Shown: positions 10,675 to 37,478, numbered from the stretch's first letter. The stretch is 64,000 nucleotides of DNA from a virus (IMGVR_UViG_3300027749_000060:32001-96000); one strand, 5' to 3'. The notes: generated from the sequence alone by a model not told the origin. Made by a program: numbers and translations.

Positions 10675-11523
10675 ATGGAAAATCAACGCAAAAACCCACT
10701 AGCTGGGCACTTTAGACAACCGGCTATTTACTTAACATTACCCAGCAAAGGTCGATGGTGGGGTGAAAATGCTCTAAATATGCCAGCAAACCAAGAAATA
10801 CCCATTTATCCAATGAGCACCAAAGATGAAATTATACTCAGAACACCAGACGCATTGCTAAATGGCCAGGGTATTATAGAAGTTATTCACAGTTGTTGCC
10901 CAAATATATTAGATGCATGGCAAATGCCTAGCATTGACGTAGATGCTGTGTTAATAGCAATACGCATTGCCACCTACGGCAATGACATGAATTTTGATAG
11001 TAAATGCACACATTGTGGTGAAGATAATACACACGGGGTAGATTTAAGTGAGCCATTGGCTAGTTTAAGATGTCCTAACTATGCCGAACCATTAGAACAT
11101 AAAGGCTTAAAAATAAAGTTTAAACCACAACATTATTTTACTGCTAATAAATCAAATGTTTTAGAGTTCCAAGAACAAAAGATATTAAATTTACTAGCAG
11201 CAGCAGACATGGATCCAGAAGATAAAGCAGTGCAAATAAAACAGGCAATGGATAAACTTTTTGATCAAGGCCTCAGGGCCTGTACGGACTGCACAGATCA
11301 TATAGAAATGGAAGACGGCCAGCAAGTACATAATACTGACTATATCTTTGAATTCTACACAAACGCTGAAAGCGGACTAATCCGCGAAATACAAGCTAAA
11401 GTACAAGAGTTTAGCAATCAAGCTAAACCTGATGGAATAGCACTAGCATGTCAGGAATGCCATAAACCATACGAGGTAGAACTAGCGTTCGATTACGCAA
11501 ATTTTTTCGGAAGAGGCTTTTAA
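10675..11523 (+). CDS. gp26: Baseplate hub / tail assembly chaperone, gp26-like
   Basis: YLTLPSKG, PMSTKDEI, DVDAVLIAIRIATYG, CxxC pairs, C-terminal NFF. Confidence 0.8.
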   Translation: MENQRKNPLAGHFRQPAIYLTLPSKGRWWGENALNMPANQEIPIYPMSTKDEIILRTPDALLNGQGIIEVIHSCCPNILDAWQMPSIDVDAVLIAIRIATYGNDMNFDSKCTHCGEDNTHGVDLSEPLASLRCPNYAEPLEHKGLKIKFKPQHYFTANKSNVLEFQEQKILNLLAAADMDPEDKAVQIKQAMDKLFDQGLRACTDCTDHIEMEDGQQVHNTDYIFEFYTNAESGLIREIQAKVQEFSNQAKPDGIALACQECHKPYEVELAFDYANFFGRGF

Positions 11524-11741
11524 CTTTAAACACTGACGCAGAGGTCATCAAGTTCTTAGAGAGATATGACCGAGAAGTAAAAGCCTTAAAAGAAGAAACA
11601 TTGCGTATGTGCTGGTATATGAGAGGAGGAGTATCTTATAATGAACTCATGGAAATGAGCAACATTGAAAGAACTATCATTGGGGATATTATTAAAAGCA
11701 ATTTAGAAACTACTAAAGAATCCAAATTGCCTTTCTTCTAA
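11499..11741 (+). CDS. gp51-like frame, probably reached by -1 frameshift from the gp26-like gene
   Basis: Frame -1 is open 11466-11741 and reads ...WYMRGGVSYNELMEMSNIERTIIGDIIKSNLETTKESKLPFF*; no ATG/GTG/TTG until 11601. Confidence 0.7.
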   Translation, partial: KFFRKRLLTLNTDAEVIKFLERYDREVKALKEETLRMCWYMRGGVSYNELMEMSNIERTIIGDIIKSNLETTKESKLPFF

Positions 11742-12200
11742 TATTCTTTATCTATTCGAGACTTGCTGTGCAAGTCTATTGCTATCGCTATCGCTCAGCA
11801 ATATTATTTCTTCTAATCTAAGAAACAATTCTAAATACTTTTAATTCGGATATATTATCTAGATGTAGATCACAATTCGGCCCAGCAGGCCAAAATTGTG
11901 ATCGAGACATTATCTGAGTGCCTTCAACACACTAACTATAAGAGATTGCTTGCTGGTGCAAACACGGAGGCGGTCATCCTGTACCCCCTACTCTAGATTC
12001 GATTATGACGGTACACTATACAATAACTAGTTAGCGCCATTGTTAGTGCTTGGGTTGTATATTTTTTACAGAGCCCAGATCATTTAATACCTTACGTTGG
12101 TATCTTACCGTACAGCTCCTAAGTCTGCGGGTGTTATTTCACACACACTCAATAGGGATCGAGGTACCTCGATCAAACGACGCTGCTATAATAATTTGCC
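11742..12200 (-). ncRNA. Candidate large structured non-coding RNA or structured cis-element
   Basis: ~460 nt without a credible ORF; many helices, G-U pairs that work only on the - strand, and an 8-bp loop-distal pairing. Confidence 0.6.
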
Positions 12201-12722
12201 TTAGCGGCTGGATTTACATAGTTGTTCTATTGATTCGGAATTTTTATTCCAGAATGATTCAAAGTCTTGGATGATCCATGTGCCATAATTAGGAGAGATA
12301 TACGTGGAGTAATTGGGATTTAGTGATAGACTTGGTGTCGGTTGACAGGCAATATAAGTGCCTTTGCGATTAAATTTCATGAGTAATATATTGAAATCGC
12401 CAGTGTTGGCCACTTCTAATAACTGCCCAATCCATTTTTCTAATATAGGTATTGTACCTTGATAAAGTTGATGGAATGGAAAATCAGCATAACTCTTTGC
12501 TTCCGCATTAAAATATGTCCAAGATTCCGGGGGAACAATATCTCCTTTGAAACTCTTAACTTGACTTGCATCAAGACTTGCTTTTCTAAAAGAATTTGTT
12601 CCGCCAATGTACGCTCCGCTGTGTGGTGCTCTAATAAAAGAGGCATTGTGGCGCTCAGATAGAAATTTGGCAACTACACGTTCCCAGGAATTTCCTTTAT
12701 TTTTGCTTTTTGATCCACTCAT
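12201..12722 (-). CDS. PD-(D/E)xK nuclease, Hjc-like Holliday junction resolvase
   Basis: KGNSWER..., GDI..., EAK catalytic pattern. Confidence 0.75.
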   Translation of the reverse strand: MSGSKSKNKGNSWERVVAKFLSERHNASFIRAPHSGAYIGGTNSFRKASLDASQVKSFKGDIVPPESWTYFNAEAKSYADFPFHQLYQGTIPILEKWIGQLLEVANTGDFNILLMKFNRKGTYIACQPTPSLSLNPNYSTYISPNYGTWIIQDFESFWNKNSESIEQLCKSSR

Positions 12723-26372: not shown

Positions 26373-29300
26373 ATGGCAACTAGAAAGACACTAAATCTTC
26401 TTCCGAGTATATTTCAAACGGAAACCAATAAGAAATTTCTTGGTGCAACACTAGATCAATTGGTCAGCGAACCAGATATTTCCAAGTTCAATGGATTTAT
26501 AGGAAGAAAGTTTTCACCGGTTAATAAACCTAGTGATAATTTTATCAACGAGCCTACAGTTAGCAGAGAAAATTATCAATTTGAACCGGCTGTTGTTATT
26601 AAAAATACTAGTAATGGTATTGACCTATATGCAGATTACCAAGACCTATTAGAAAAAGTTGCAAATCATGGCGGGATAACAGAAAATCATAATAGATTAT
26701 TTGAATCAGAATATTATAGTTTTAATCCTAGAATTAATTTTGACAAATTTATTAACTATACCAGATATTTTTGGTTACCAACAGGTACCGATCCTGTAAC
26801 AGTATCTGCAGGCACACCCGGCAATGATAGAACATTTGTCATTACTAGAAATGATCCAGGCGGTTATGCTACTATAAATCAAGACTCCACTCCAAATTCA
26901 ACTATAACATTAGTACGTGGCGCAGTATATAAATTTAACGTCAACCAGCCCGGTGCCAAATTTTGGATTCAAACAGAAGTTGGTATAGATGGCTTTAAAG
27001 ATTTTAATCAAACTATCTCTACTAGAGATATTATTGGCATTGAAAATAACGGTGCCGAATCCGGAACTATTACTTTTACTGTGCCAGACAAAGATTCGCA
27101 AGATTATTATTTTAAAATGCCATCATTGGGATTTATTGATTATGCTATTAGTGAACCGTTCTCTGCAATTGACGGTCAGTTTTGGGTAAACGGTAATAAT
27201 GCAATGGATCAAATTGAAGGTTCAACTCGATATCCACAAGGTTATTATGTTGTTTTTACATCAACTAGTACAAATCCTGATAACTGGATTGATTATACGG
27301 GTAATCCAGTACCAATAGATAAACGACATGGTCTTTGGAAAATTACTATTAATCAAAATTCTAAAATACAAATGGAGTTTGTTAGAACAATACCGTTGGG
27401 GTATAAAATTAGAATTAATTATGGAGCAAATGCTGGTAAAGAATTCTTTAAAAATTCAGGAGATAATTTAGTACTATCTCCTCCAATTACTGCACCTTTA
27501 TCAACATTGTTTTATCAAGACGAAAACAATGAATCTATAGTGGGAAAAATCAACATTGTTGATTTTCCGGGTAATGCAATTAATGTTAATTCGGATATAT
27601 TGGGCAAGGTTACATACACTAGTCCTAACGGTGTAGTGTTTACCAATGGGTTAACAGTTGTTTTTGATAACACTGTATTTCCTAATTCGTATCGCAATTC
27701 AAAATATATCATTGAAGGTGTTGGAAAATCAATTAAATTAATTGATATAATATTATTAGAATCTGTTGAGAGCGTTGACACGAAATCTAGTGTGCCATTT
27801 GATCAAGAACCATTTGATACTCTTGGATTAGATCAACCAATAGCAAACAGTGTCGCTATACCCGACTATATTGTTATGAATAAATCAACAACAGATTTAA
27901 ATGCATGGGCTCGCGGCAATAGATGGTTCCACGAAGATATAATTGCAAAAGCAGCTGAATATAATAAAACAACAGTAAAGATTGATCCAACTAAAAGAGC
28001 AAATAGACCAATCATCGAATTTGAAGAAGATTTACAATTATTTAATAGTGGAAAGAACTTTCTTGCTATAATAGATAGGGCCGACACTAATTTTGTAGGA
28101 ACTGGCGAAAAAATATTAAATGCATACACTGATGTTAATGACAAATATGTCAATGATGCGTCTATTAGACGTTTAAATTATATAGAAAATCAAGTAGCTA
28201 TTTTCCCCAATGATATTAGTAGTAATGTTAGAAATGCATTATTTAGAATTGAATTTAAAAATCAAACTACTGCAACATCATTTAATGGAGTTGGCACCGG
28301 ATATGTTAACATACGTCAGGGATCAAATCGAGTTTATGAAAAAATATTAGATGGTAATAGAACAACATTCAGAGATCAATATATACCGGGTACATTGTTA
28401 TATGCAGTGGATAATACGTATATTGGAAAAATAAAATCAATTTTTAGTAACAACGAAATGATTTTAGAGTCGCCTGCATTAGTGACTCGTAACGAAGTAG
28501 TTGTAAAATTTAATTATCCTAAAATTACTTTACGCAAAATAAAGACAGCAGTCAATAATGATTCGGTGGTTGTCAGGACTGGACTTAATCAAAAAAACAC
28601 ATTCTGGTTAAATTCAGGAGTCTGGGCATATGCACAATATAAAAAAGATGTTAACACTCCTATTAAATTTGATGTAGTTGATAAAGATGGCATTAGTTTA
28701 TCTAGTCCATCTAAGTACACCGAAAGTAAATTTGCTGGAACAACTGTATTTTCTTATGACATAGGCAGTAGTATATCAGATCCTATACTTGGTATCAAAT
28801 TGCGGTATACTGGCATAGGTAATTCAATATCAGATATCAATTTTGTAAATTCTTTTGAAACTGATACATTTACATATAAACCATATGATTATAAAACATT
28901 AAATATTTCGTCGATTGGGTATTTAAGTAAACGCACTGGAAGAAATACTTATAGCTTGCTCACTGTTTGGCAATCTATATCAGAGCCTACAAAACAATAT
29001 CAACATATAGCAGATTTGTCCGATGGTACAACTAACTATTTTGAAATTGATATACTGCCCGGTGATATAGTAAATCAGCCAAACATAAAAGTTTTTGTTA
29101 ATAATGTACTAATTAAAAATGAAGATTTTGTTATAGAAACGGTAGGGATCAGACATGCTGTTAATATATTAACTACAGTCCTTGACGGTGATAAGATTGA
29201 TATATTAATTTATAATAAAAAATCAATTAGTGATCTTGGTTATTATCAAATTCCAAGTAACTTAGAATTTAATGCACAAAACTATGATATAACAAACGTA

Positions 29301-32300
29301 ACACTAGGACAACTCAGAGGGCATTGGAATGCTATTGGAAAAAATACTATTGGATTAATTGGAAATCCTATTTCATCAAATAATCTACGTGATCTGAATA
29401 CTAATGCACAAAATGGTTTAATTCTACAACACTCGGCGCCTACAATTTATGCATCGTTGTTTTTAATTGATCCGCATCTTAATTTTATTAATAGTATTGA
29501 ATTTGCACGTAGTGATTATTCAAAATTTAAAAATAAGTTTTTAGAACTATGTGTAAACACACCGGGGCTTCCCCGTAATAATACACCAGCTGGTGTTGAT
29601 ATGATATTAAAAATTATCAACGGTGTAAAAAATCAAACATTTCCGTGGCATTATTCAGATATGATTCCATGGGGCGATGATGTTGTATTAGATACATATA
29701 AAATAATTAATGCACAGACTAGACTGTATACACTGAATAATATATATCTATCGCCAATTGGCGATAAAATGTATCCAAAAAATGGTCCATCAAATTGTGC
29801 TGTTCTTGTTTATCTTAATAATAGATTATTAGTCATTGATGTTGAATACACCATTACTAATGGTAATCCTTATATTACTATTAGTGATAGTGTGTTATTG
29901 TACGAGGGTGATTTACTTACAATAAAAGGTTACAAAAATACTGACGGTAGTTATGTGCCCGAAACACCTACTAAAATGGGAATGTATCCTAAATTTGTTC
30001 CAAGTATATTTGTAGATACAGCATTCAGAACACCTATAAATGTAATACAAGGACATGACGGAAGTAGACTTCCAGTTTTTAATGATTTGCGGGACGACTA
30101 TCTACTAGAACTTGAAAAAAGAATATTTAATAACATTAAAGTAGAATACAATGCTGAATTATTTGATGTATTTACATTTGTACCCGGCAAGTTTAGAAAT
30201 AATGACTATACCAGGCTTGAATTTAATGAAGTATTAAATTCTGATTTTTTAAAATGGATAGGAACTAATCAACTAGACATTGGCAGCAATGAATATTTCT
30301 TATCCAATAACGAATTCAGCTGGAATTATAATCAAGCATCTGATTCTATTAATGATGAATTGTTGCCAGGTTATTGGAAAGGAATTTATCAATATTTCTA
30401 TGATACGTGTCGCCCGCACACACACCCATGGGAAATGTTAGGACTACAAAATAAACCAGTCTGGTGGGAACCTACATATGGCGCCGCCCCCTATACACCT
30501 TCCAAAACTCAAATGTGGACCGATTTGGCATATGGATTTAATCGCGGCGATCGTACCACTAATACACAATATGCAAGGCCTGGATTATTGAAAATTATTC
30601 CAGTTAATGATGCCGGGGAATTATTACCTCCGGTGTCTAAATTAGTAAAGAAATATAATGGGACTACATTTAATCAAAGTTATGCAATAGGAGATCAAGG
30701 GCCAGTTGAGTCGGCCTGGAGAAATACCAGCGAATATGTATTTTCATTACATCGTGCAATAGCGTTATTAAAACCTGCTAAGTATTTTGGATTATTTTTT
30801 AATACCTCTTCGTATATCAACGATCCGGTAATAAATCAGTATGTTTTAAAAAATAATAAAAAGAGAATAACTCCAGAGTCGTTGCTAATTAACGGAGAAG
30901 TAGTGTCAGGTGCAATAACCAGATCGTCAAGTTACGTAAATTGGATACATGGTTATCTGACTAATTTAGGAATTAATGCTGCACAAAAAATAAGAACTAC
31001 AATTAGTAATCTGGATATTAGACTAGGATATAGGATGTCTGGTTATAGTGATAAATCTTATTTCACTGCTCTGGTAGAACAGTATAGTCCTAACAGTGTA
31101 AATCAATCTGCTATTATTCCATCTGAAAATTACATTGTTCATTTAAATAAAAGCTCGCCTATACGTAGTGCAACCTACAGTGGGGTTATTATTTCTAAAA
31201 CTACAGGCGGTTATGTTATCAATGGATATAATTTAAAATATCCTTATTTTACAGTTATACCTAGTTTAATAAATGGCAATTTTTATAGAATTGAAGCAGT
31301 AACAGCAACTGCAATTATATATAAAGATTACATTGATCAAAAAATAAATGTACCGTATGGATTTGAATTTGGTTCATCGCAAGAGTTAGTTGACTTTTTA
31401 GTTGGCTACGAACGATTTTTAATGTCCCAGGGTTTTATATTTGAAGCATATGATTCAGATCTTGGTGAAGTAAAAAATTGGATACTAAGTGCAAAAGAAT
31501 TTTTAGGTTGGACTTTGCAAGGGTGGAACGAAGGTAATATATTAGTATTAAGCCCAGTTCATTACACACTACAATTGTTTTCAACTGATTCAGTTGTGGA
31601 TACAGTCATTGGGCAAACTTCTAATACTCAAGTATTGGGACCAAATTTTAATGTTATCAAAGCCGACGAAATTGCAGTATTAAAAGAACCGGGACGTACA
31701 ACTGTTACTGTAATTTCTGGACAAACTATTGCATTTATAGAATTGCAGTTGGTTCAATATGAACATGTATTAGTATTTGACAACACAACTGTGTTTGCTG
31801 ATGTTATATATAAACCAGAATTGGGCAGTCGACAGTATAGATTAAAACTAATTGGATCTAAAACCACTGGGTGGGACGGATCATTAAACATACCTGGATT
31901 TATTTACAACACAGGATATATTGAACAATGGACCCCTGGCAGAGATTACAAAAAAGCAGATATTATTCAATATAAAAAACAAAACTATACAGCTATAGCA
32001 GATATATCTGGGACAGATACATTTAAACATGATCTATGGAGTATAACTGATCGTAAAATTGTAGCAAAATTAGTACCAAACTTTTCTCAAAATGCGTCTA
32101 AGTTTAATACGGTGTATAGCTTGGATACTCCAAATATAGATAGTTACTTTTCAGGATTCAGTAATGGGTTAACAGGATATAGGAATAGATCGTATCTTGA
32201 AGATTTAGGAATGGATCAAATTGCTCAAACTAAATTTTATCAAGGCTATATAAAAGAAAAAGGCACATTTAGTTCAATATCGGCACTATTTAAAGCTCGT

Positions 32301-35300
32301 CTTGATAATACAATAAACAATGTAGAAATATTTGAGGAATGGGGTCTAAGAGTAGGCGAGTATGGAGCAACTAAAACAAATCAATCAATTGATTTAATCT
32401 TAGATGAAAAGAAGTTTCAAGATGATCCAATAGTATTTTCAGTCATTAACGGAATAGAAATTCCACCTCCGAATGTAAAATTCTTTCGACCTAATACTTT
32501 ATTAAGCAAAAGTATAGATTTTAAATCGCCGTTGTTTTCGCATCGTCCAATGAATGAATACTTTGAGACAGATATAAAAACAGCAGGATATGTCAATATC
32601 AATGAGGTTGATAGCTTATTATTTGATTTTAATAATTATAAAAACTTAAATTTAACAATATTGGCTGATCTAGTAAATGGATATAAACTTTGGGTAGCTA
32701 AGGATTTTAATAAAGATTGGCAAGTTTATAAAGTAGTAGAAGTAGACAATCAAGTACTTGGTATTAGTTACGGCCTTGACAACAAAGTTATTATTACTAC
32801 TAAGTATGATCACGGCTTACAAATTGCCGATATAATAGCTATCAGAGATTTGAATTCTCTATACGACGGTTTTTATCAAGTATTAAATGTTGAAGCACCG
32901 AATACTTTTATTTGTATAATATCTACAAGTTTAATATCATCAATACAAACTGTTCCAGTTTATGGAACCGGCACTTTATTTTTATTACAGAAATCAAGAT
33001 ATAAAACAACAGAACTCAGAGAGTCTAATGTCACTAAAAGTATTTGGCAAGCTGGAGATTTAGTCTGGGTGGATGAAAACAATGGTCCAAATTGGGCTAC
33101 ATACAAATTTGTAAGTAGCGATCCTGGAAATTTTGGTGGACTGCACAATTTCTGGGGAATAGACAGCGGCTCAATAATATTCAGATCGTCTGGATTACCA
33201 TATCACGAATTTGGAAATATACAGTTTGATGTAACCGCAGTTAAACAAAATTATAATCGTATTTGGCCTCTTTATGCTGGAAAAAATATACCTGCTACTG
33301 TAGCAAGTCCGATTGGCAGCGGAATAATTGGATTTTGTTTAAATGGAGTTCCAATTTATAGTAGTATTGCTGCCGATTTTACAGCACCTGCTGATTATAG
33401 TACCCCTGGGGGATTTAATTATAACTTATCGTTCTCAGATTACAATTTCTTTAAGATAGATAATGCCGGAGGTACTACAACATTTAGCGGCGAATACTTT
33501 TATAGAAGTTTTACTTTTGGACAGGCCTGGAATACCGGTATTGGTGGTAGTGATACTAGAGTAAATGTAGAATATAAGTCGGAAATTTTATCTATTGCAT
33601 ATTTAGGCGGTGGTTTGGCTCATGCCAATGGCCATAGTAAAATATTAGGATTTGCAATCGACGGCTATCCAATTTATGGGCCGTATGGTTATTCAAATCC
33701 AAATAATATTCGTACACCAATTATAAGGATGACCAGCGGTTATGCACTTAGAAATCCTTCGTACAGAGCACCAACTGAAGCATGCGATTTAAATGTATAT
33801 CCAATGGGTATGTTTGCACAAGATTACGAATTTACTCAAGACGGGACACTAGACAAACATAACGGTAGATATTGTATTACTCCTGACTACCCTAACGGTA
33901 CCTATGCATATTTTGCTACTGTTAATAACTCCGGGCCTACATATCCATATTTTATCGGACCTACTTTTTACGGAACTGTTTCGTCAGTGAGCAATTCTCT
34001 TATACCGGGACCCGGCATTAAACCTCGGGTATTTGACGACCAGGTTAACGCAGTTTGGGAATTATATAAAAATCAGGAACCGTCGGTTGATTTTAACAGT
34101 ATGCGTGGTATGCATCTAATAGATAATGTTAATAAGAATATACTTGTTAAGTTAGATATAATTGATCCAGCTAAAGGAAGAATACTTGGGTCGGCACAAG
34201 CTGATATTGATTTTACTACTTCGTTTGATCCTGCATTTTATAACAATGGTACAAATGATGCATTGACAATTGATAGTGAATTCAATTGGGGTGAACAACA
34301 AATAGGATTAGTCTGGTGGGATTTGGAAGCTGTCAGATATTACGACTACGAACAAAGTACTATTGAATATAGAGCAAACAATTGGGGAAAAGTGTTTCCT
34401 GGAAGTAATATTTTTATATACGAATGGGTGTCAAGCGACGTATTACCGTCAATGTATGTTGCTGCTGGATTAGATGGTATTCCAAAATATGCAGACGACT
34501 CGGGGTATTCTACATTATATTATGTCGACGACATCACAATGACAGTTAAGACCAAATATTATTATTGGGTCAGAGCTAAGAATAGTGTAGGGAAAACATC
34601 TAAATCGCATAGCGTGTCTGGATTAGAGCAAATGGTTGCGGATCCTGGAAAACAAGATATACCATATGCAGCATTGATTGATAATAAAACTGTTGCATTA
34701 TATAATATTGGAAAATATCTATTAGAAGATAGAGTAGCATTGCACATTGAATATTCATTAGCTAAAAATGAAAATATTGTACATAGTGAATTTGAATTAT
34801 TTCAACAAGGTAACAAGAATGCAATAATGCATCCCCGAATTGAGAAAAAAATAATTGATAGTTTAGTTGGGGTAGATGAAAATAAAAATTTAGTACCTGA
34901 CCCTAGTTTATTACCTGCCGATCGCCTTGGGGTCTCGGATCGCCCAAGACAATCAATAATAGCTGATAGATTAGTAGCGCTCGACAATATAATTGGATTT
35001 ATTAATCAAATTATATTAAAATATCCAGTTGCAACACGCATATTCGATAAAGAAACAGTATACTCTGATAATTTCTATGCAGCAGAGCCGTATCCTGCCA
35101 AATCCGAATATGATTTAATAGTTGACACATTTATACAGTTAGATTATCTATTTGAAATATATCCAACTGATTTAGTAGTAGGTACAGAATATATTATTGC
35201 ACAAGCTGGTAATACTAATTTTGTTGAGTTAGGTGCAAGTGCAAATCAAATTGGCGTGAGGTTTAAAGCAACAGGCACCGGGGTTGGGCTTGGTACAGTA

Positions 35301-37478
35301 TTCCATAGTCGTATATTGGTTGCCAAAGATATCAATAACGGAAATAGATGGGCAATTTATTATAAACGTGTAGGTATTAATCCTTTGCCATTATTGTTAA
35401 AAATTCAATCTTATAACACAACTAATTTTTGGAATTTTATAGATTGGTATGCAAAAGGGCACGATAAGAATACACTAGTAGTTACTAAAAGTTTTGACAA
35501 TTATAACTTAACATACACAGATACCTTTGACATAGGAGATATTGTTAAAATTAATGATAACGGAAAAGGTAAATTTTCAATCTATAGATATAATGAAAAT
35601 AGTACCCTTGAGTTAATAGCCATAGAGTCGGGTACAATTGAGATATCTTCTGAATTCTGGAATAAATCTGGATTTGATCACGAAGGAATGGATTTCTTAT
35701 CATTTGATTATAGTTACTTTGAAGAACTACGATACATATTTAAAGGTATTAAAGAAGATATTTTTGTAAAAGATTTAGAAATTTATTACAATCAATTTTT
35801 ATTCTATGTAATTGAATATGTACTGTCGGAACAGAAATATGTAGACTGGATTTTTAAAACTAGTTTTATAACAGTTGCACACGAATTGCAAGGGTTAGTG
35901 CAATTGCCTTCGTATGTTAAAGATAGACAGACTCTGTACGAACAATATATCAATGAAGTCAAACCTTATAGAACAAAAATTAGAGAATACATACTAAAAT
36001 ATTCCAATTTGGAAACGTTAGATACCAACACAGTAACTGATTTTGACCTACCATCATATTATGATTTTGATTTAGGAAAATTCCGTAGCCCCAATGGAGA
36101 ATTTCCAGGCAAAGACCAAGTATTATTAGCAACAAAACCAGAGTATCAAGATTGGAAAAACCACCATGGATATTCAATTGGGTCAATTGAAATAGCAAAC
36201 GCAGGAATTGGTTATATTAGTAATGGACAAGTCGTAACACCCGACATATCTATAGTTCCTACCGATGAAACAGGATATGGTGCCAATGCTACCGCAGTAA
36301 TAGACGAAAGAATTGCTGGTGCAATATCGTCTGTGAACATTAAGACACCCGGAGATTTTTATACTACTACACCACTAATAGTTGTTAGCGGAGTGGGAGC
36401 AACTCAAATGAGTCGATACCAAGCCGGACATCCAAAATCAGCTCTACTATCTCCGAGATTGTTGAATAAGAAAATAAGAAAAATTAATACGGTAATGAAA
36501 TTTGACAGAGTTACGTACGACACTCAAGTTCAAGAATGGGCCCCGAATACTAACTATGATAATGGTGTATATGTAACGTACCAAGGGAAATGTTATATAA
36601 CCAACTCAAATATTGGAACATTGAGCAAATTTGATAAAACTCAATTTGTTAGCGTAACGTCAAATGTATTCGACAATGCAAACGATCGAATAACTGCATT
36701 TTACAATCCCACTGCCTCAATGATACCAAAAACATTATCCAGACTAATGACTGGCTTGGATAGACCTATACTGTCCGGAGAACAGAATGTAATAATTGAT
36801 ACAGCAATACAAGGTGGCGGGTTTACTGGAACTTCTATAGCAGCAGGAAGATTTGTATTAGGTAAAGACTATATTATTATTAATATAGGTAATACAGATT
36901 TTACACTATGCGGAGCCTCGTCTAACAAAGTAGGACTGAAATTTACAGCAACCGATGTTGGGATTGGGACCGGATCGGCAACAATTGCGTTGTCTACATC
37001 TGGGTACGGAACAGCATCTGGAATTGAGCCAGGAACAATTACATTAACAGGTGGTGCATTTGTTTATGAAACATTCAGCCATGCCCCAGAGGAATTATTA
37101 CCTGGTATAACATTTGATGCTGTCAGCATCCGTGTCGTTGACGATAATGGAGTTGGATATAGAAAATTTGTAAACATGAATCAAATAAAAACTGTTTCAA
37201 ATACAGCACCGCAAAGTTTAACTACGCTCTCACAAGATTTGTTAATTACAGATCAAACCATAACAGTGTCAGATTCTAGCAAACTTTATACACCTAGTAG
37301 ACTTTCAATTTCGCCCGGTTTAATATTTGTAAATGGTGAGCTAATTGAGTATTACACTAAAACTAACAATGTACTTGGTCAGTTACGCAGAGGTGTAGGC
37401 GGAACTGGGACTCCGATGGTACATCTATTAGGTAGTACTGTTGAAAATTCCAATCTCCCCGGAGCACTGAGACTATAA
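26373..37478 (+). CDS. Very large baseplate wedge / structural protein (gp7-like) with an inserted YHYH-like domain
   Basis: 3701 aa directly after gp6; YHYH-like block at ~33160-33980. Confidence 0.65.
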   Translation: MATRKTLNLLPSIFQTETNKKFLGATLDQLVSEPDISKFNGFIGRKFSPVNKPSDNFINEPTVSRENYQFEPAVVIKNTSNGIDLYADYQDLLEKVANHGGITENHNRLFESEYYSFNPRINFDKFINYTRYFWLPTGTDPVTVSAGTPGNDRTFVITRNDPGGYATINQDSTPNSTITLVRGAVYKFNVNQPGAKFWIQTEVGIDGFKDFNQTISTRDIIGIENNGAESGTITFTVPDKDSQDYYFKMPSLGFIDYAISEPFSAIDGQFWVNGNNAMDQIEGSTRYPQGYYVVFTSTSTNPDNWIDYTGNPVPIDKRHGLWKITINQNSKIQMEFVRTIPLGYKIRINYGANAGKEFFKNSGDNLVLSPPITAPLSTLFYQDENNESIVGKINIVDFPGNAINVNSDILGKVTYTSPNGVVFTNGLTVVFDNTVFPNSYRNSKYIIEGVGKSIKLIDIILLESVESVDTKSSVPFDQEPFDTLGLDQPIANSVAIPDYIVMNKSTTDLNAWARGNRWFHEDIIAKAAEYNKTTVKIDPTKRANRPIIEFEEDLQLFNSGKNFLAIIDRADTNFVGTGEKILNAYTDVNDKYVNDASIRRLNYIENQVAIFPNDISSNVRNALFRIEFKNQTTATSFNGVGTGYVNIRQGSNRVYEKILDGNRTTFRDQYIPGTLLYAVDNTYIGKIKSIFSNNEMILESPALVTRNEVVVKFNYPKITLRKIKTAVNNDSVVVRTGLNQKNTFWLNSGVWAYAQYKKDVNTPIKFDVVDKDGISLSSPSKYTESKFAGTTVFSYDIGSSISDPILGIKLRYTGIGNSISDINFVNSFETDTFTYKPYDYKTLNISSIGYLSKRTGRNTYSLLTVWQSISEPTKQYQHIADLSDGTTNYFEIDILPGDIVNQPNIKVFVNNVLIKNEDFVIETVGIRHAVNILTTVLDGDKIDILIYNKKSISDLGYYQIPSNLEFNAQNYDITNVTLGQLRGHWNAIGKNTIGLIGNPISSNNLRDLNTNAQNGLILQHSAPTIYASLFLIDPHLNFINSIEFARSDYSKFKNKFLELCVNTPGLPRNNTPAGVDMILKIINGVKNQTFPWHYSDMIPWGDDVVLDTYKIINAQTRLYTLNNIYLSPIGDKMYPKNGPSNCAVLVYLNNRLLVIDVEYTITNGNPYITISDSVLLYEGDLLTIKGYKNTDGSYVPETPTKMGMYPKFVPSIFVDTAFRTPINVIQGHDGSRLPVFNDLRDDYLLELEKRIFNNIKVEYNAELFDVFTFVPGKFRNNDYTRLEFNEVLNSDFLKWIGTNQLDIGSNEYFLSNNEFSWNYNQASDSINDELLPGYWKGIYQYFYDTCRPHTHPWEMLGLQNKPVWWEPTYGAAPYTPSKTQMWTDLAYGFNRGDRTTNTQYARPGLLKIIPVNDAGELLPPVSKLVKKYNGTTFNQSYAIGDQGPVESAWRNTSEYVFSLHRAIALLKPAKYFGLFFNTSSYINDPVINQYVLKNNKKRITPESLLINGEVVSGAITRSSSYVNWIHGYLTNLGINAAQKIRTTISNLDIRLGYRMSGYSDKSYFTALVEQYSPNSVNQSAIIPSENYIVHLNKSSPIRSATYSGVIISKTTGGYVINGYNLKYPYFTVIPSLINGNFYRIEAVTATAIIYKDYIDQKINVPYGFEFGSSQELVDFLVGYERFLMSQGFIFEAYDSDLGEVKNWILSAKEFLGWTLQGWNEGNILVLSPVHYTLQLFSTDSVVDTVIGQTSNTQVLGPNFNVIKADEIAVLKEPGRTTVTVISGQTIAFIELQLVQYEHVLVFDNTTVFADVIYKPELGSRQYRLKLIGSKTTGWDGSLNIPGFIYNTGYIEQWTPGRDYKKADIIQYKKQNYTAIADISGTDTFKHDLWSITDRKIVAKLVPNFSQNASKFNTVYSLDTPNIDSYFSGFSNGLTGYRNRSYLEDLGMDQIAQTKFYQGYIKEKGTFSSISALFKARLDNTINNVEIFEEWGLRVGEYGATKTNQSIDLILDEKKFQDDPIVFSVINGIEIPPPNVKFFRPNTLLSKSIDFKSPLFSHRPMNEYFETDIKTAGYVNINEVDSLLFDFNNYKNLNLTILADLVNGYKLWVAKDFNKDWQVYKVVEVDNQVLGISYGLDNKVIITTKYDHGLQIADIIAIRDLNSLYDGFYQVLNVEAPNTFICIISTSLISSIQTVPVYGTGTLFLLQKSRYKTTELRESNVTKSIWQAGDLVWVDENNGPNWATYKFVSSDPGNFGGLHNFWGIDSGSIIFRSSGLPYHEFGNIQFDVTAVKQNYNRIWPLYAGKNIPATVASPIGSGIIGFCLNGVPIYSSIAADFTAPADYSTPGGFNYNLSFSDYNFFKIDNAGGTTTFSGEYFYRSFTFGQAWNTGIGGSDTRVNVEYKSEILSIAYLGGGLAHANGHSKILGFAIDGYPIYGPYGYSNPNNIRTPIIRMTSGYALRNPSYRAPTEACDLNVYPMGMFAQDYEFTQDGTLDKHNGRYCITPDYPNGTYAYFATVNNSGPTYPYFIGPTFYGTVSSVSNSLIPGPGIKPRVFDDQVNAVWELYKNQEPSVDFNSMRGMHLIDNVNKNILVKLDIIDPAKGRILGSAQADIDFTTSFDPAFYNNGTNDALTIDSEFNWGEQQIGLVWWDLEAVRYYDYEQSTIEYRANNWGKVFPGSNIFIYEWVSSDVLPSMYVAAGLDGIPKYADDSGYSTLYYVDDITMTVKTKYYYWVRAKNSVGKTSKSHSVSGLEQMVADPGKQDIPYAALIDNKTVALYNIGKYLLEDRVALHIEYSLAKNENIVHSEFELFQQGNKNAIMHPRIEKKIIDSLVGVDENKNLVPDPSLLPADRLGVSDRPRQSIIADRLVALDNIIGFINQIILKYPVATRIFDKETVYSDNFYAAEPYPAKSEYDLIVDTFIQLDYLFEIYPTDLVVGTEYIIAQAGNTNFVELGASANQIGVRFKATGTGVGLGTVFHSRILVAKDINNGNRWAIYYKRVGINPLPLLLKIQSYNTTNFWNFIDWYAKGHDKNTLVVTKSFDNYNLTYTDTFDIGDIVKINDNGKGKFSIYRYNENSTLELIAIESGTIEISSEFWNKSGFDHEGMDFLSFDYSYFEELRYIFKGIKEDIFVKDLEIYYNQFLFYVIEYVLSEQKYVDWIFKTSFITVAHELQGLVQLPSYVKDRQTLYEQYINEVKPYRTKIREYILKYSNLETLDTNTVTDFDLPSYYDFDLGKFRSPNGEFPGKDQVLLATKPEYQDWKNHHGYSIGSIEIANAGIGYISNGQVVTPDISIVPTDETGYGANATAVIDERIAGAISSVNIKTPGDFYTTTPLIVVSGVGATQMSRYQAGHPKSALLSPRLLNKKIRKINTVMKFDRVTYDTQVQEWAPNTNYDNGVYVTYQGKCYITNSNIGTLSKFDKTQFVSVTSNVFDNANDRITAFYNPTASMIPKTLSRLMTGLDRPILSGEQNVIIDTAIQGGGFTGTSIAAGRFVLGKDYIIINIGNTDFTLCGASSNKVGLKFTATDVGIGTGSATIALSTSGYGTASGIEPGTITLTGGAFVYETFSHAPEELLPGITFDAVSIRVVDDNGVGYRKFVNMNQIKTVSNTAPQSLTTLSQDLLITDQTITVSDSSKLYTPSRLSISPGLIFVNGELIEYYTKTNNVLGQLRRGVGGTGTPMVHLLGSTVENSNLPGALRL

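What the first reader, a model, noticed from the sequence alone, without database searches (positions are those of the whole stretch)
11868..12200. Candidate large pseudoknotted ncRNA between the tail chaperone and the resolvase
Seen: the largest non-coding gap in a densely coded window is packed with helices. On the - strand: an 18-bp perfect palindrome (12157-12174); a closing helix UGAGUG(12151-12146)/CACUCA(11920-11915); ACGGUA(12111-12106)/UACCGU(12013-12008); AUACC/GGUAU; UGGG..UGU/ACA..CCCA; a long stem CACUA-ACAAUGGC/GUUAUUGU-UAGUG (12048-12014) whose loop GCUAACUA (12035-12028) is complementary over 8 nt to UAGUUAGU (11938-11931), a long-range pseudoknot; GGGGGU/GCCUCC; UGUUUGC/GCAAGCA; and a ~15-bp hairpin at 11868-11903. 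Several pairs are G-U on the - strand but C-A mismatches on +, which points to selection on an RNA transcribed downstream of the resolvase. I see no tRNA, tmRNA, RNase P or group I/II intron hallmarks. Inference: an unrecognised phage RNA comparable in complexity to GOLLD/ROOL/HEARO-class RNAs, or a structured pre-primer for an R-loop origin (there is a G-tract and an AT-rich stretch downstream).
Basis: partly seen in the sequence, partly recalled or inferred. Interest (0 to 1): 0.82.

Follow-up and report, generated by a model that had tools for sequence, protein, structure and literature searches.

The report
Large twin-box phage RNA gene
The "empty" gap behind a small nuclease gene of this uncultured T4-like giant phage is a real gene for a large, knotted non-coding RNA shared by well over a hundred related phage contigs; the RNA shows the same 7-letter word twice, and its job is still unknown.

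Summary
Observation confirmed. Window 12188-11854 (- strand) encodes a ~335-nt RNA. It is followed on the same strand by an A/U-rich linker and two more conserved hairpins (to 11759). A covariance model finds it full-length in 45 of 80 nuclease-anchored loci and in all 80 loci found through an RNA motif alone. Of 89 nested pairs, 72 show compensatory changes: 90.7% of cells are paired, against ~40% when partners are slid. G-U outnumbers A-C 1193 to 230, which fixes the strand.

The same heptamer, AGAUAAU, occurs twice (11915-11909 and 11860-11854), and the two copies change together across relatives. No Rfam family, tRNA or tmRNA matches.

Earlier follow-ups of this scan met the same family on other DNA and pointed to the orphan Rfam motif Polynucleobacter-1. 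I confirm that this motif is the 5' domain of sister RNAs, but it does not match here. The upstream nuclease (PD-(D/E)XK here, GIY-YIG elsewhere) looks like a replaceable neighbour. Function is unknown. My best guess is a trans-acting scaffold whose twin words are lineage-specific recognition elements.

The parts
11854..12188 (-). Core of the structured RNA (three domains, 14 nested helices, two long-range pairings)
   Evidence: CM R1/R2 match 11855-12188, 399 bits. 72/89 pairs have compensatory change. Single copy in the 109-kb record.
12197..12203 (-). Leader motif UAAGGCA, overlapping the nuclease stop codon, 8-13 nt before helix P1
   Evidence: AGGC lies within 40 nt upstream in 46/97 distinct RNAs, against 12% of background windows, whatever the upstream gene. 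In L160 it lies downstream of a sigma70-like promoter. Not enriched genome-wide.
12113..12185 (-). Domain 1: P1 (12185-12182/12116-12113) enclosing hairpin P2 (12174-12157), P3 (12156-12153/12121-12118) and hairpin P4 (12148-12127)
   Evidence: All pairs of P1, P2 and P3 and 6/7 of P4 show changes on both sides.
12008..12111 (-). Domain 2: P5 (12111-12107/12012-12008) enclosing hairpins P6 (12104-12086), P7/P8 (12077-12051) and P9 (12049-12013)
   Evidence: P6 6/6, P7 4/4 and P9 13/14 pairs covary. P5 is 76% paired.
12028..12035 (-). PK1, 5' side: loop of P9, GCUAACUA
   Evidence: Pairs with 11938-11931. Relatives carry GCUGGCUA/UGGCCAGU, CUUGCGU/ACGCAAG, CAUGUAU/AUACAUG, ACAACAU/AUGUUGU and others. 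5 of 7 pairs show double changes.
11931..11938 (-). PK1, 3' side: UAGUUAGU (its last 3 nt overlap P15)
12148..12152 (-). PK2, 5' side: UUGAG in the internal loop of domain 1
   Evidence: 100% paired with CUCRG in 33-36 distinct RNAs. Four pairs are invariant and one varies on one side only (U-A 15, U-G 21). Consistent, but not proven.
11914..11918 (-). PK2, 3' side: CUCAG (its last two letters open box 1)
11858..11997 (-). Domain 3: P10 (11997-11989/11867-11858) enclosing hairpin P13/P14 (11988-11966), a variable hairpin (11964-11947), P15 (11933-11929/11921-11917) and hairpin P16 (11903-11868)
   Evidence: P10 has 5/6 pairs and P16 12/12 pairs with double changes. P13 is 99% paired.
11909..11915 (-). 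Box 1: AGAUAAU, preceded by ACUC
   Evidence: Identical to box 2 in 78/97 distinct RNAs (most of the rest are visibly alignment register slips, a few unresolved). At least 13 different words across relatives.
11854..11860 (-). Box 2: AGAUAAU, preceded by AUCU (its first 3 nt close P10)
   Evidence: Mean 0.76 mismatches to box 1, against 2.02 (minimum 1.77) in 1000 partner shuffles.
11803..11853 (-). A/U-rich linker of variable length
   Evidence: Hairpin A starts 21-136 nt (median 38) after the core in 82/96 RNAs.
11778..11802 (-). Hairpin A: 6-bp stem, tandem G-A, GC/GC, 3-5-nt loop (AUUGCU-GAGC-GAUA-GCGA-U-AGCAAU)
   Evidence: Outer stem pairs covary, and the inner G-C changes to A-U in 8 RNAs. 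The motif occurs once in the 64-kb window. It stays with the RNA when genes are inserted downstream.
11759..11777 (-). Hairpin B: AGACUUGC-ACA-GCAAGUCU
   Evidence: 4 of 7 pairs show double changes in 75 RNAs; AGA/UCU is invariant. The scan finds no U-tract terminator here.
12201..12722 (-). Upstream neighbour: 173-aa PD-(D/E)XK nuclease (PHROG name 'RusA-like')
   Evidence: Pfam PDDEXK_15, 75 bits; phrog_244. Replaced by a ~142-aa SegE-type GIY-YIG nuclease in about 43 loci and by unrelated genes in about 13.
10675..11741 (+). Convergent downstream neighbours: gp26-like baseplate hub (10675-11523) and a 46-aa ORF (11601-11741)
   Evidence: Pfam T4_baseplate, phrog_150. Both lie downstream on the opposite strand in nearly all loci.

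Best explanation
This is a gene for a large, stand-alone structured non-coding RNA, read from the - strand. It has a core of about 335 nt and reaches about 430-445 nt with its 3' hairpins. It belongs to a widespread family of uncultured T4-like giant phages, which earlier follow-ups of this scan called 'twin-box RNA'.

Shown: the RNA folds into three domains held together by a covarying kissing pseudoknot (PK1) and probably a second long-range pairing (PK2). It presents the same 7-nt word twice, each copy leaving the 3' end of a helix (ACUC|word and AUCU|word) on either side of hairpin P16. The two words change together between lineages.

Inferred (about 40%): the conserved body is a scaffold, and the twin words are lineage-specific recognition elements. 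They would be read by an external partner that occurs in two copies or as a dimer: a complementary nucleic acid, or a dimeric protein. On this reading the RNA acts in trans.

Also inferred: in this phage the RNA is made at the end of the late-sigma / gp47 / gp46 / nuclease transcription unit, or from a promoter inside the nuclease gene. Its 3' end would be set by hairpins A and B. The nuclease upstream would be a habitual neighbour, not a partner.
For: Real RNA:
- z -3.2 on the - strand, -1.9 on the + strand.
- The DNA is conserved even where the flanking nuclease is only ~50% identical.
- CM hits are full-length in 45 of 80 nuclease-anchored loci and in 80/80 motif-anchored loci.
- 90.7% of cells are paired, against 71% in shuffles and 35-45% when slid; 72/89 pairs have double changes.
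- PK1 covaries. G-U 1193 against A-C 230.

Twin words: identical in 78/97 RNAs, with at least 13 word types. A second, divergent RNA in one genome (L330) keeps the flanks ACUC|..|GUCUC and AUCU|..|UAUC but carries another word, GCAUGAA, where that genome's gp46-linked RNA has AGAUGAA.

Stand-alone gene: in the complete 328-kb genome behind L160, the RNA has its own near-consensus sigma70-like promoter (11/12), and the nuclease gene is divergent. The upstream gene is PDDEXK_15, SegE-type GIY-YIG or something unrelated. Hairpins A and B covary and travel with the RNA.
Against:
- No partner was identified. The word and its complement are not enriched in the 109-kb record, and that record is only ~31% of a genome.
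- Parallel change of the two boxes could reflect an unseen tertiary constraint rather than an outside reader. Positions 1-3 of each box are already used in PK2 and P10.
- PK2 has no compensatory change.
- The promoter in the window itself is not identified.
Confidence: 0.55

Rival explanations
1. Structured pre-primer of a replication origin. The transcript would fold, then stay hybridised to the A/T-rich DNA just downstream as an R-loop and prime leading-strand synthesis, as ColE1 RNA II and the T4 oriF/oriG transcripts do.
For: An A/U-rich linker of 21-136 nt follows the core in all relatives. The locus sits beside the recombination genes gp46/gp47 and a gp26-like hub gene. From my own knowledge, T4 oriF(uvsY) also lies next to genes 25/26. 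An earlier follow-up (e1-5648585) reached the same guess.
Against: Nothing tested here bears on origin activity. Two pseudoknots, many invariant junction nucleotides and twin co-varying words are more than known primer RNAs need. One genome (G004) carries two such RNAs at different places. A sister RNA sits in a bacterial island next to an integrase.
Confidence: 0.12
2. RNA partner (guide or scaffold) of the nuclease encoded immediately upstream, in the way reRNA/omegaRNA serve TnpB and IscB.
For: The RNA starts 0-49 nt after the upstream ORF, on the same strand, in 78 of 111 loci. That ORF is a nuclease in about 97 of 111 loci. The twin words look like specificity elements.
Against: Two unrelated small nuclease folds (PDDEXK_15, SegE GIY-YIG) and about 13 unrelated genes occupy the slot in front of one conserved RNA. 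In L160 the nuclease is divergent and the RNA has its own promoter. In some loci a further gene of about 1 kb lies between them. The sister RNAs L329 and L330 have no nuclease neighbour. SegE-type proteins are protein-only homing endonucleases (my knowledge), and a highly conserved RNA gene is a typical landing place for them, as SegB sits in the T4 tRNA cluster.
Confidence: 0.08
3. Cis-acting 3' end of the operon mRNA: a stabiliser against 3' exonucleases, or a bidirectional terminator between convergent genes, with no function of its own in trans.
For: It lies between convergent transcription units and directly follows an ORF without a recognisable terminator. Hairpin A is preceded by an A-run, so on the opposite strand it would be a hairpin followed by a U-run.
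Against: A 335-nt, three-domain, doubly knotted fold with invariant loops far exceeds what a terminator or stabiliser needs. It keeps its structure behind different genes and behind its own promoter. The strand bias of G-U pairs also applies to the core, not just the terminal hairpins.
Confidence: 0.08
4. Not an RNA at all: a small protein-coding gene or a DNA-level site (iterons, packaging or recombination site).
For: At DNA level the twin heptamers are direct repeats flanking an inverted repeat, a layout seen in protein-binding sites. Stop-free stretches of about 60 codons exist in some frame of most copies.
Against: Changes are compensatory in pairs, not at third codon positions. Indels are not multiples of three. 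The window's ORFs within the gap are 30-35 aa; a 74-aa frame (12050-12274 +) merely runs out of it, antisense into the nuclease gene. G-U is tolerated on one strand only. A pseudoknot covaries over about 95 nt.
Confidence: 0.02

Closest known systems
Polynucleobacter-1 RNA motif (Rfam RF01718; Weinberg et al. 2010, PMC2864571)
   Same: An orphan motif of unknown function from Burkholderiales and fresh water/estuary. In L329 (92.4 bits) and L330 (35.5 bits) it is the 5' domain of RNAs that continue into the same 3' architecture as here: an ACAG..ACCGCC hairpin, then ACUC|word, a hairpin, AUCU|word, then a GAGC..GCGA hairpin and a second hairpin. Short motifs recur in the same order here (CCCUA, AGACU).
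   Different: RF01718 does not match this RNA at E<=10, nor anywhere in the 109-kb record. It also does not match 12 other loci of this subfamily at gathering score. My model R2 does not score L329 or L330. The catalogued motif is 141 nt; the RNA here is about 335-445 nt.
GOLLD / ROOL large ornate RNAs (Rfam; cryo-EM in PMC12286853)
   Same: Large, ornate, often phage-borne RNAs of unknown function with covarying loop-loop contacts.
   Different: No CM match. This RNA is smaller, has a different fold and does not sit next to tRNAs. Oligomerisation was not tested.
Satellite phage P4 immunity RNA (CI/seqB with seqA and seqC) and P1/P7 c4 RNA (my knowledge)
   Same: A short specificity word present twice (seqA, seqC) that changes between related elements and is read by base pairing.
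   Different: In those systems the complement (seqB) lies in the same leader. Here no complement was found within the RNA or within 80-170 nt of flank. The scaffold here is much larger.
TnpB reRNA / IscB omegaRNA (HEARO)
   Same: A structured RNA directly adjoining a small nuclease gene on the same strand.
   Different: The nucleases here are PD-(D/E)XK or GIY-YIG, are interchangeable and are sometimes absent or divergent. No HEARO match. No transposon ends were seen.
Free-standing Seg homing endonucleases beside T4 tRNA genes (SegB; my knowledge)
   Same: A small GIY-YIG nuclease gene parked next to a highly conserved structured-RNA gene. This explains the variable occupancy of the slot.
   Different: It describes the neighbour, not the RNA. 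Homing was not tested.
phi29 pRNA
   Same: A phage RNA with a covarying loop-loop interaction.
   Different: No Rfam match. pRNA is 120-174 nt and comes from a different phage group and genome position.

Membership tests
Polynucleobacter-1 (RF01718) | Covariance-model score at or above the gathering score (37 bits) | tested here: not met
   No match at E<=10 in window 11650-12350. None in G000 at E<=10. None at gathering score in 12 loci of this subfamily.
Polynucleobacter-1 (RF01718) | Homology of the 5' domain, judged by position in a shared larger architecture | tested here: inconclusive
   Sister RNAs L329 and L330 have RF01718 followed by the same twin-box core and 3' hairpins. Here only the position and two short motifs agree. 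R2 does not score L329 or L330.
Twin-box phage RNA (working name of this scan; unpublished) | Same 7-nt word twice, after ACUC and after AUCU, flanking a hairpin; the copies change together | tested here: met
   AGAUAAU at 11915-11909 and 11860-11854. 78/97 identical, at least 13 words.
Twin-box phage RNA (working name of this scan; unpublished) | Two long-range pairings (double knot) | tested here: met
   PK1 has compensatory changes. PK2 is 100% paired but invariant, so it is only consistent.
Twin-box phage RNA (working name of this scan; unpublished) | 3' module: GA-motif hairpin plus a second hairpin | tested here: met
   11802-11778 and 11777-11759. 10/13 pairs covary in 75 RNAs.
tRNA / tmRNA | Cloverleaf or tRNA-like domain with tag reading frame | tested here: not met
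   ARAGORN finds 0 genes in the window.
RNase P RNA, group I/II introns, 6S, SRP, GOLLD, ROOL, HEARO, OLE, raiA, pRNA (Rfam 15) | Covariance-model match | tested here: not met
   No match at gathering score in the window. Only chance-level microRNA/snoRNA matches at E 1-10. None in 8 + 14 related loci.
TnpB/IscB guide RNAs | Obligate RuvC-type nuclease neighbour and transposon context | tested here: not met
   Neighbours are PDDEXK_15 or SegE_GIY-YIG, or unrelated genes.
Intrinsic terminator | G+C-rich hairpin followed by a U-run on the transcribed strand | tested here: not met
   The scan reports none at 11759-11802 on the - strand. The only - strand hit in the gap is the internal variable hairpin 11964-11947.
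R-loop origin pre-primer (ColE1 RNA II, T4 oriF/oriG type) | Persistent RNA-DNA hybrid and initiation of DNA synthesis at the locus | not testable with these tools
   Only an A/U-rich linker is seen.

The most novel reading that the evidence does not exclude
The RNA is a programmable recognition device. A conserved, doubly knotted scaffold presents two copies of a lineage-specific heptamer. These pair with (or are bound at) two copies of a matching site on phage or host nucleic acid. They would bring the two sites together or mark them for replication, recombination, packaging or exclusion of related phages. Paralogues with different words in one genome would then address different targets.
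Probability: 0.2. Interest if true: 0.9.

Novelty: new variant of a known kind. Interest (0 to 1): 0.72.

Why it matters
Few large, intricately folded RNAs remain without a known function, and such RNAs have repeatedly turned out to be ribozymes, RNP cores or guides. This one is as well supported by covariation as curated Rfam families. It is present in at least about 125 uncultured giant-phage contigs, including a complete 328-kb genome. It also has an unusual and testable feature: two copies of a short word that evolve in concert. Only a 141-nt piece of a sister subfamily is catalogued, as an orphan motif. A full model would improve phage genome annotation, because these gaps are now left empty or filled with spurious small ORFs. 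It would also give RNA biologists a defined target for structure and partner searches.

Tried and rejected
- Rfam at gathering and E-value thresholds on the window and on 22 related loci gave nothing meaningful. ARAGORN found nothing.
- Cultured relatives: Pseudomonas phage PA5oct and Cronobacter phage GAP32 share the sigma-gp47-gp46 ... hub synteny, and GAP32 has an unannotated 805-nt gap there. Neither R1/R2 (filters on or off) nor a twin-box/GA-hairpin heuristic finds the RNA. blastn of this RNA and of the L329 RNA against 50,697 phage records found no match.
- GTDB pattern scan: 3 real hits, which are two large contigs of a Haliscomenobacter MAG and one small mis-binned contig. The rest are chance 23-mers in G+C-rich genomes.
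- Partner of the twin word: no consistent complement in the RNA or its flanks. A leader/box pairing seen in some loci is not general. The word is not enriched in the genome. An apparent link between box position 5 and the P3 pair holds in A3 (97%) but not in A4 (67%), so I read it as shared ancestry.
- The leader motif AGGCA as a general promoter: rejected, since it is not enriched genome-wide.
- Hammerhead reading of hairpin A (CUGAUGA..GAAA look-alike): rejected. The UGAU letters belong to the covarying outer stem and there is no three-way junction.
- Group I intron with a homing-endonuclease ORF: rejected. gp46 is complete, there is no downstream exon and no Rfam match.
- Literature: four full-text searches (and the supplements of PMC10690425) found no description of this RNA. 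The 10,006-candidate catalogue of Fremin et al. 2023 may contain it, but its files are not held.

Full report
SETTING. The window is bases 32001-96000 of a single 109,418-bp virus record that CheckV rates about 31% complete. The genes around the finding are T4-like: a gp55-type late sigma factor, gp47/SbcD, gp46/SbcC, then a 173-aa nuclease, all on the - strand. A gp26-like baseplate hub gene and a 46-aa ORF on the + strand converge on them. The closest cultured gp46 proteins, at about 50% identity, are those of Pseudomonas jumbo phage PA5oct. The gap 11742-12200 lies between the two convergent units.

- A search with the nuclease protein fetched 80 IMG/VR loci. The gap DNA is recognisably conserved even where the protein is only about 50% identical.
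- Seven close sequences already give 25 compensated pairs.
- A covariance model built from them (R1, 333 positions, 89 pairs) finds the RNA in 46 of the 80 loci, full-length in 45, and once in the window (11855-12188, - strand, 399 bits).
- On that alignment (42 distinct rows) 90.7% of cells are standard pairs, against 71.3% after shuffling partners and 35-45% after sliding them. 72 of 89 pairs show changes on both sides; 0 of 500 shuffles reach any measure.
- A 23-nt degenerate motif taken from the RNA alone was scanned over IMG/VR.
- Over 111 distinct RNAs, paired cells are 6447 Watson-Crick, 1193 G-U and only 230 A-C. The functional strand is therefore the - strand (the alignment was fitted to the model, which favours G-U somewhat).

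Nearly all are confirmed at the stated coordinates (one search lists them in window coordinates).
- The loop of the long hairpin P9 (GCUAACUA, 12035-12028) pairs with UAGUUAGU (11938-11931). Relatives show GCUGGCUA/UGGCCAGU, GCUGACUA/UAGUCAGU, CUUGCGU/ACGCAAG, CUUGUAU/AUACAAG, CAUGUAU/AUACAUG, UCAGUA/UACUGA and ACAACAU/AUGUUGU. Five of seven pairs carry double changes even though the alignment was not fitted to this helix.
- The 'closing helix' UGAGUG/CACUCA is only partly right. GUG belongs to hairpin P4, whose pairs covary. What can stand is UUGAG (12152-12148) with CUCAG (11918-11914). This is paired in every sequence, but with four invariant pairs and one one-sided change (U-A 15, U-G 21). 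It is a plausible second pseudoknot, not a proven one.
- UGUUUGC/GCAAGCA (11964-11947) lies in a variable stretch where close relatives have other hairpins.

(1) The twin box. ACUC|AGAUAAU (11915-11909) and AUCU|AGAUAAU (11860-11854) flank hairpin P16. In 78 of 97 distinct RNAs the two heptamers are identical. Most of the others are visibly register slips of the alignment, and a few (L122, L140, L144, L152) I could not resolve. At least 13 different words occur: AGAUAAU, AGAUGAU, GGAUGAU, GGAUGAA, GGAUAAU, AGAUGAA, AGAUAAA, GGAUGAG, AGACGAA, AUAGCAG, AUGAAGA, GUAUGAU and more. Mean mismatch between the boxes of one RNA is 0.76, against 2.02 (minimum 1.77) in 1000 partner shuffles. Positions 1-2 of box 1 belong to PK2 and positions 1-3 of box 2 close P10. 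The rest has no consistent complement in the RNA or in 80-170 nt of flank.

(2) A 3' module. After an A/U-rich linker (median 38 nt) come two hairpins:
- Hairpin A (11802-11778): a 6-bp stem, tandem G-A, GC/GC, and a short loop.
- Hairpin B (11777-11759).
They are present in 82 of 96 RNAs with enough flank. Ten of 13 pairs have compensatory changes in 75 RNAs. The motif occurs once in the window. Where genes are inserted downstream, the module stays with the RNA and not with the convergent genes.

(3) A leader motif, (U/A)AGGCA, 8-13 nt before P1. It is present in 46 of 97 RNAs against 12% of background windows, independent of the upstream gene.

NEIGHBOURS. Gene order is conserved: late sigma, gp47, gp46, [slot], RNA, then the convergent 46-aa ORF and hub gene. 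The slot holds one of the following:
- a PDDEXK_15 nuclease, which PHROGs calls RusA-like (54 of 111 loci, though half of those were fetched through this protein);
- a 142-aa protein with a GIY-YIG motif (about 43 loci; the one tested scores 111 bits on Pfam SegE_GIY-YIG);
- unrelated genes (about 13 loci).
In 78 of 111 loci the upstream ORF ends 0-49 nt before the RNA. In the complete, terminally redundant 328-kb genome behind L160 the nuclease gene is divergent. There the RNA is preceded by a near-consensus sigma70-like promoter (TTGACA, 18 nt, TATACT; 11 of 12) about 50 nt upstream, followed by two AAGGCU repeats. I read the nucleases as replaceable neighbours. They are either the phage's junction-resolving enzyme in non-orthologous versions, or selfish homing endonucleases parked beside a very conserved gene, as SegB sits among T4 tRNA genes (my knowledge). 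I do not read them as partners.

WHAT IS IT RELATED TO? Rfam 15 gives nothing at gathering score in the window. In E-value mode over the gap it gives only chance microRNA/snoRNA hits, and nothing in 22 related loci. ARAGORN finds nothing. After I had the structure and had noticed the repeated motif, I consulted the scan's earlier notes. Several follow-ups on other genomes describe the same family as 'twin-box' RNA and name the orphan Rfam motif Polynucleobacter-1 (RF01718; listed in PMC2864571 for Burkholderiales and fresh water/estuary) as closest known.

I tested this lead. RF01718 does not match the window or its genome at E<=10. It does match two other places:
- a second locus in the genome of L103 (L330, 35.5 bits, just under the cut-off);
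- a contig of a Haliscomenobacter MAG (L329, 92.4 bits).
In both, the 141-nt motif is followed by the same architecture as here: an ACAG..ACCGCC hairpin, ACUC|word|GU.U.C, a long hairpin, AUCU|word|UAU, then a GAGC..GCGA hairpin and another hairpin. The words are GCAUGAA (L330) and AUCGAAA (L329). So Polynucleobacter-1 is the 5' domain of a sister subfamily. My broader model R2 (26 diverse sequences) does not score those RNAs. The link therefore rests on shared architecture and flanking motifs, not on a model score. L329 lies upstream of a tyrosine integrase gene, and L330 has no nuclease neighbour.

DISTRIBUTION. There is one copy in this record. There are at least about 125 IMG/VR contigs, up to 346 kb. 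PA5oct and GAP32 share the synteny but not the RNA. blastn against 50,697 phage records finds nothing.

HOW IT MOST LIKELY WORKS. Shown: it is a single-strand-specific, three-domain fold with one proven and one probable long-range pairing. Its junctions and loops are invariant, its 3' hairpin module is conserved, and its two heptamers evolve in concert. Inferred: it is a trans-acting RNA whose conserved body is a scaffold and whose twin words are lineage-specific recognition elements for an external partner that is present in two copies or is dimeric. I put this mechanism at about 40%, and the statement that it is a functional stand-alone RNA gene at above 95%.

Three observations support the recognition reading. 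The words change fast while their flanks stay fixed across subfamilies. Two RNAs in one genome carry different words. No internal complement exists.

Rivals are an R-loop origin pre-primer (about 12%; only the A/U-rich linker and the genomic neighbourhood speak for it), a nuclease partner (about 8%; contradicted by the interchangeable, sometimes divergent or absent nuclease), a cis-acting 3' end (about 8%), and a DNA site or small ORF (about 2%). No transcript data could be obtained.

VERDICT. It is not entirely without precedent. A piece of a sister subfamily is an orphan Rfam entry, and this scan has already met the family on other DNA. As far as four literature searches show, the full RNA and this subfamily are undescribed.

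Noticed in passing
L330:1501-1960 (+), same genome as L103 (G004, 302 kb): This genome carries a second twin-box RNA at another locus. It has a Polynucleobacter-1-like 5' domain (35.5 bits) and the word GCAUGAA, while its gp46-linked RNA has AGAUGAA. A redoxin gene lies downstream and there is no nuclease upstream.
   Followed up: partly
L329:1150-1635 (-), contig C184 of a Haliscomenobacter MAG: A full twin-box RNA whose 5' third scores 92.4 bits on RF01718, followed on the same strand by a tyrosine integrase gene (119-703). The RNA gene may be part of a mobile island or may be its integration target.
   Followed up: partly
window 12201-12722 (-) and the same slot in related loci: PHROGs calls the 173-aa protein 'RusA-like resolvase', but Pfam places it in PDDEXK_15. 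In about 43 related loci the same slot holds a 142-aa GIY-YIG protein that is catalytic domain only and scores as SegE-type. This is either non-orthologous replacement of a resolvase or two homing endonucleases competing for one site.
   Followed up: partly
window 12202-12193 and 11733-11724 (- strand): AAGGCAAAUU and AAGGCAAUUU (9 of 10 identical) bracket the whole RNA module as direct repeats. The downstream copy lies in the last codons of the 46-aa ORF. I did not see this consistently in other loci.
   Followed up: partly
L328:8652-9455 (Cronobacter phage GAP32, record 177397-178200): An unannotated 805-nt gap at the syntenic position (between EndoVII and the hub-side small ORF). It matches no model used here. 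It could hold an unrelated or very divergent RNA.
   Followed up: partly
window 26373-37478 (+): A single 3701-aa ORF, followed by ORFs of 1227 and 1964 aa. These are very large proteins, probably virion or fibre proteins. Not examined.
   Followed up: no
L103:9920-10000 (upstream of its RNA): The leader motif UAGGCA/UAGGCU is repeated five times within about 80 nt in front of this RNA. This suggests the motif is a binding or processing site that can be multiplied.
   Followed up: no
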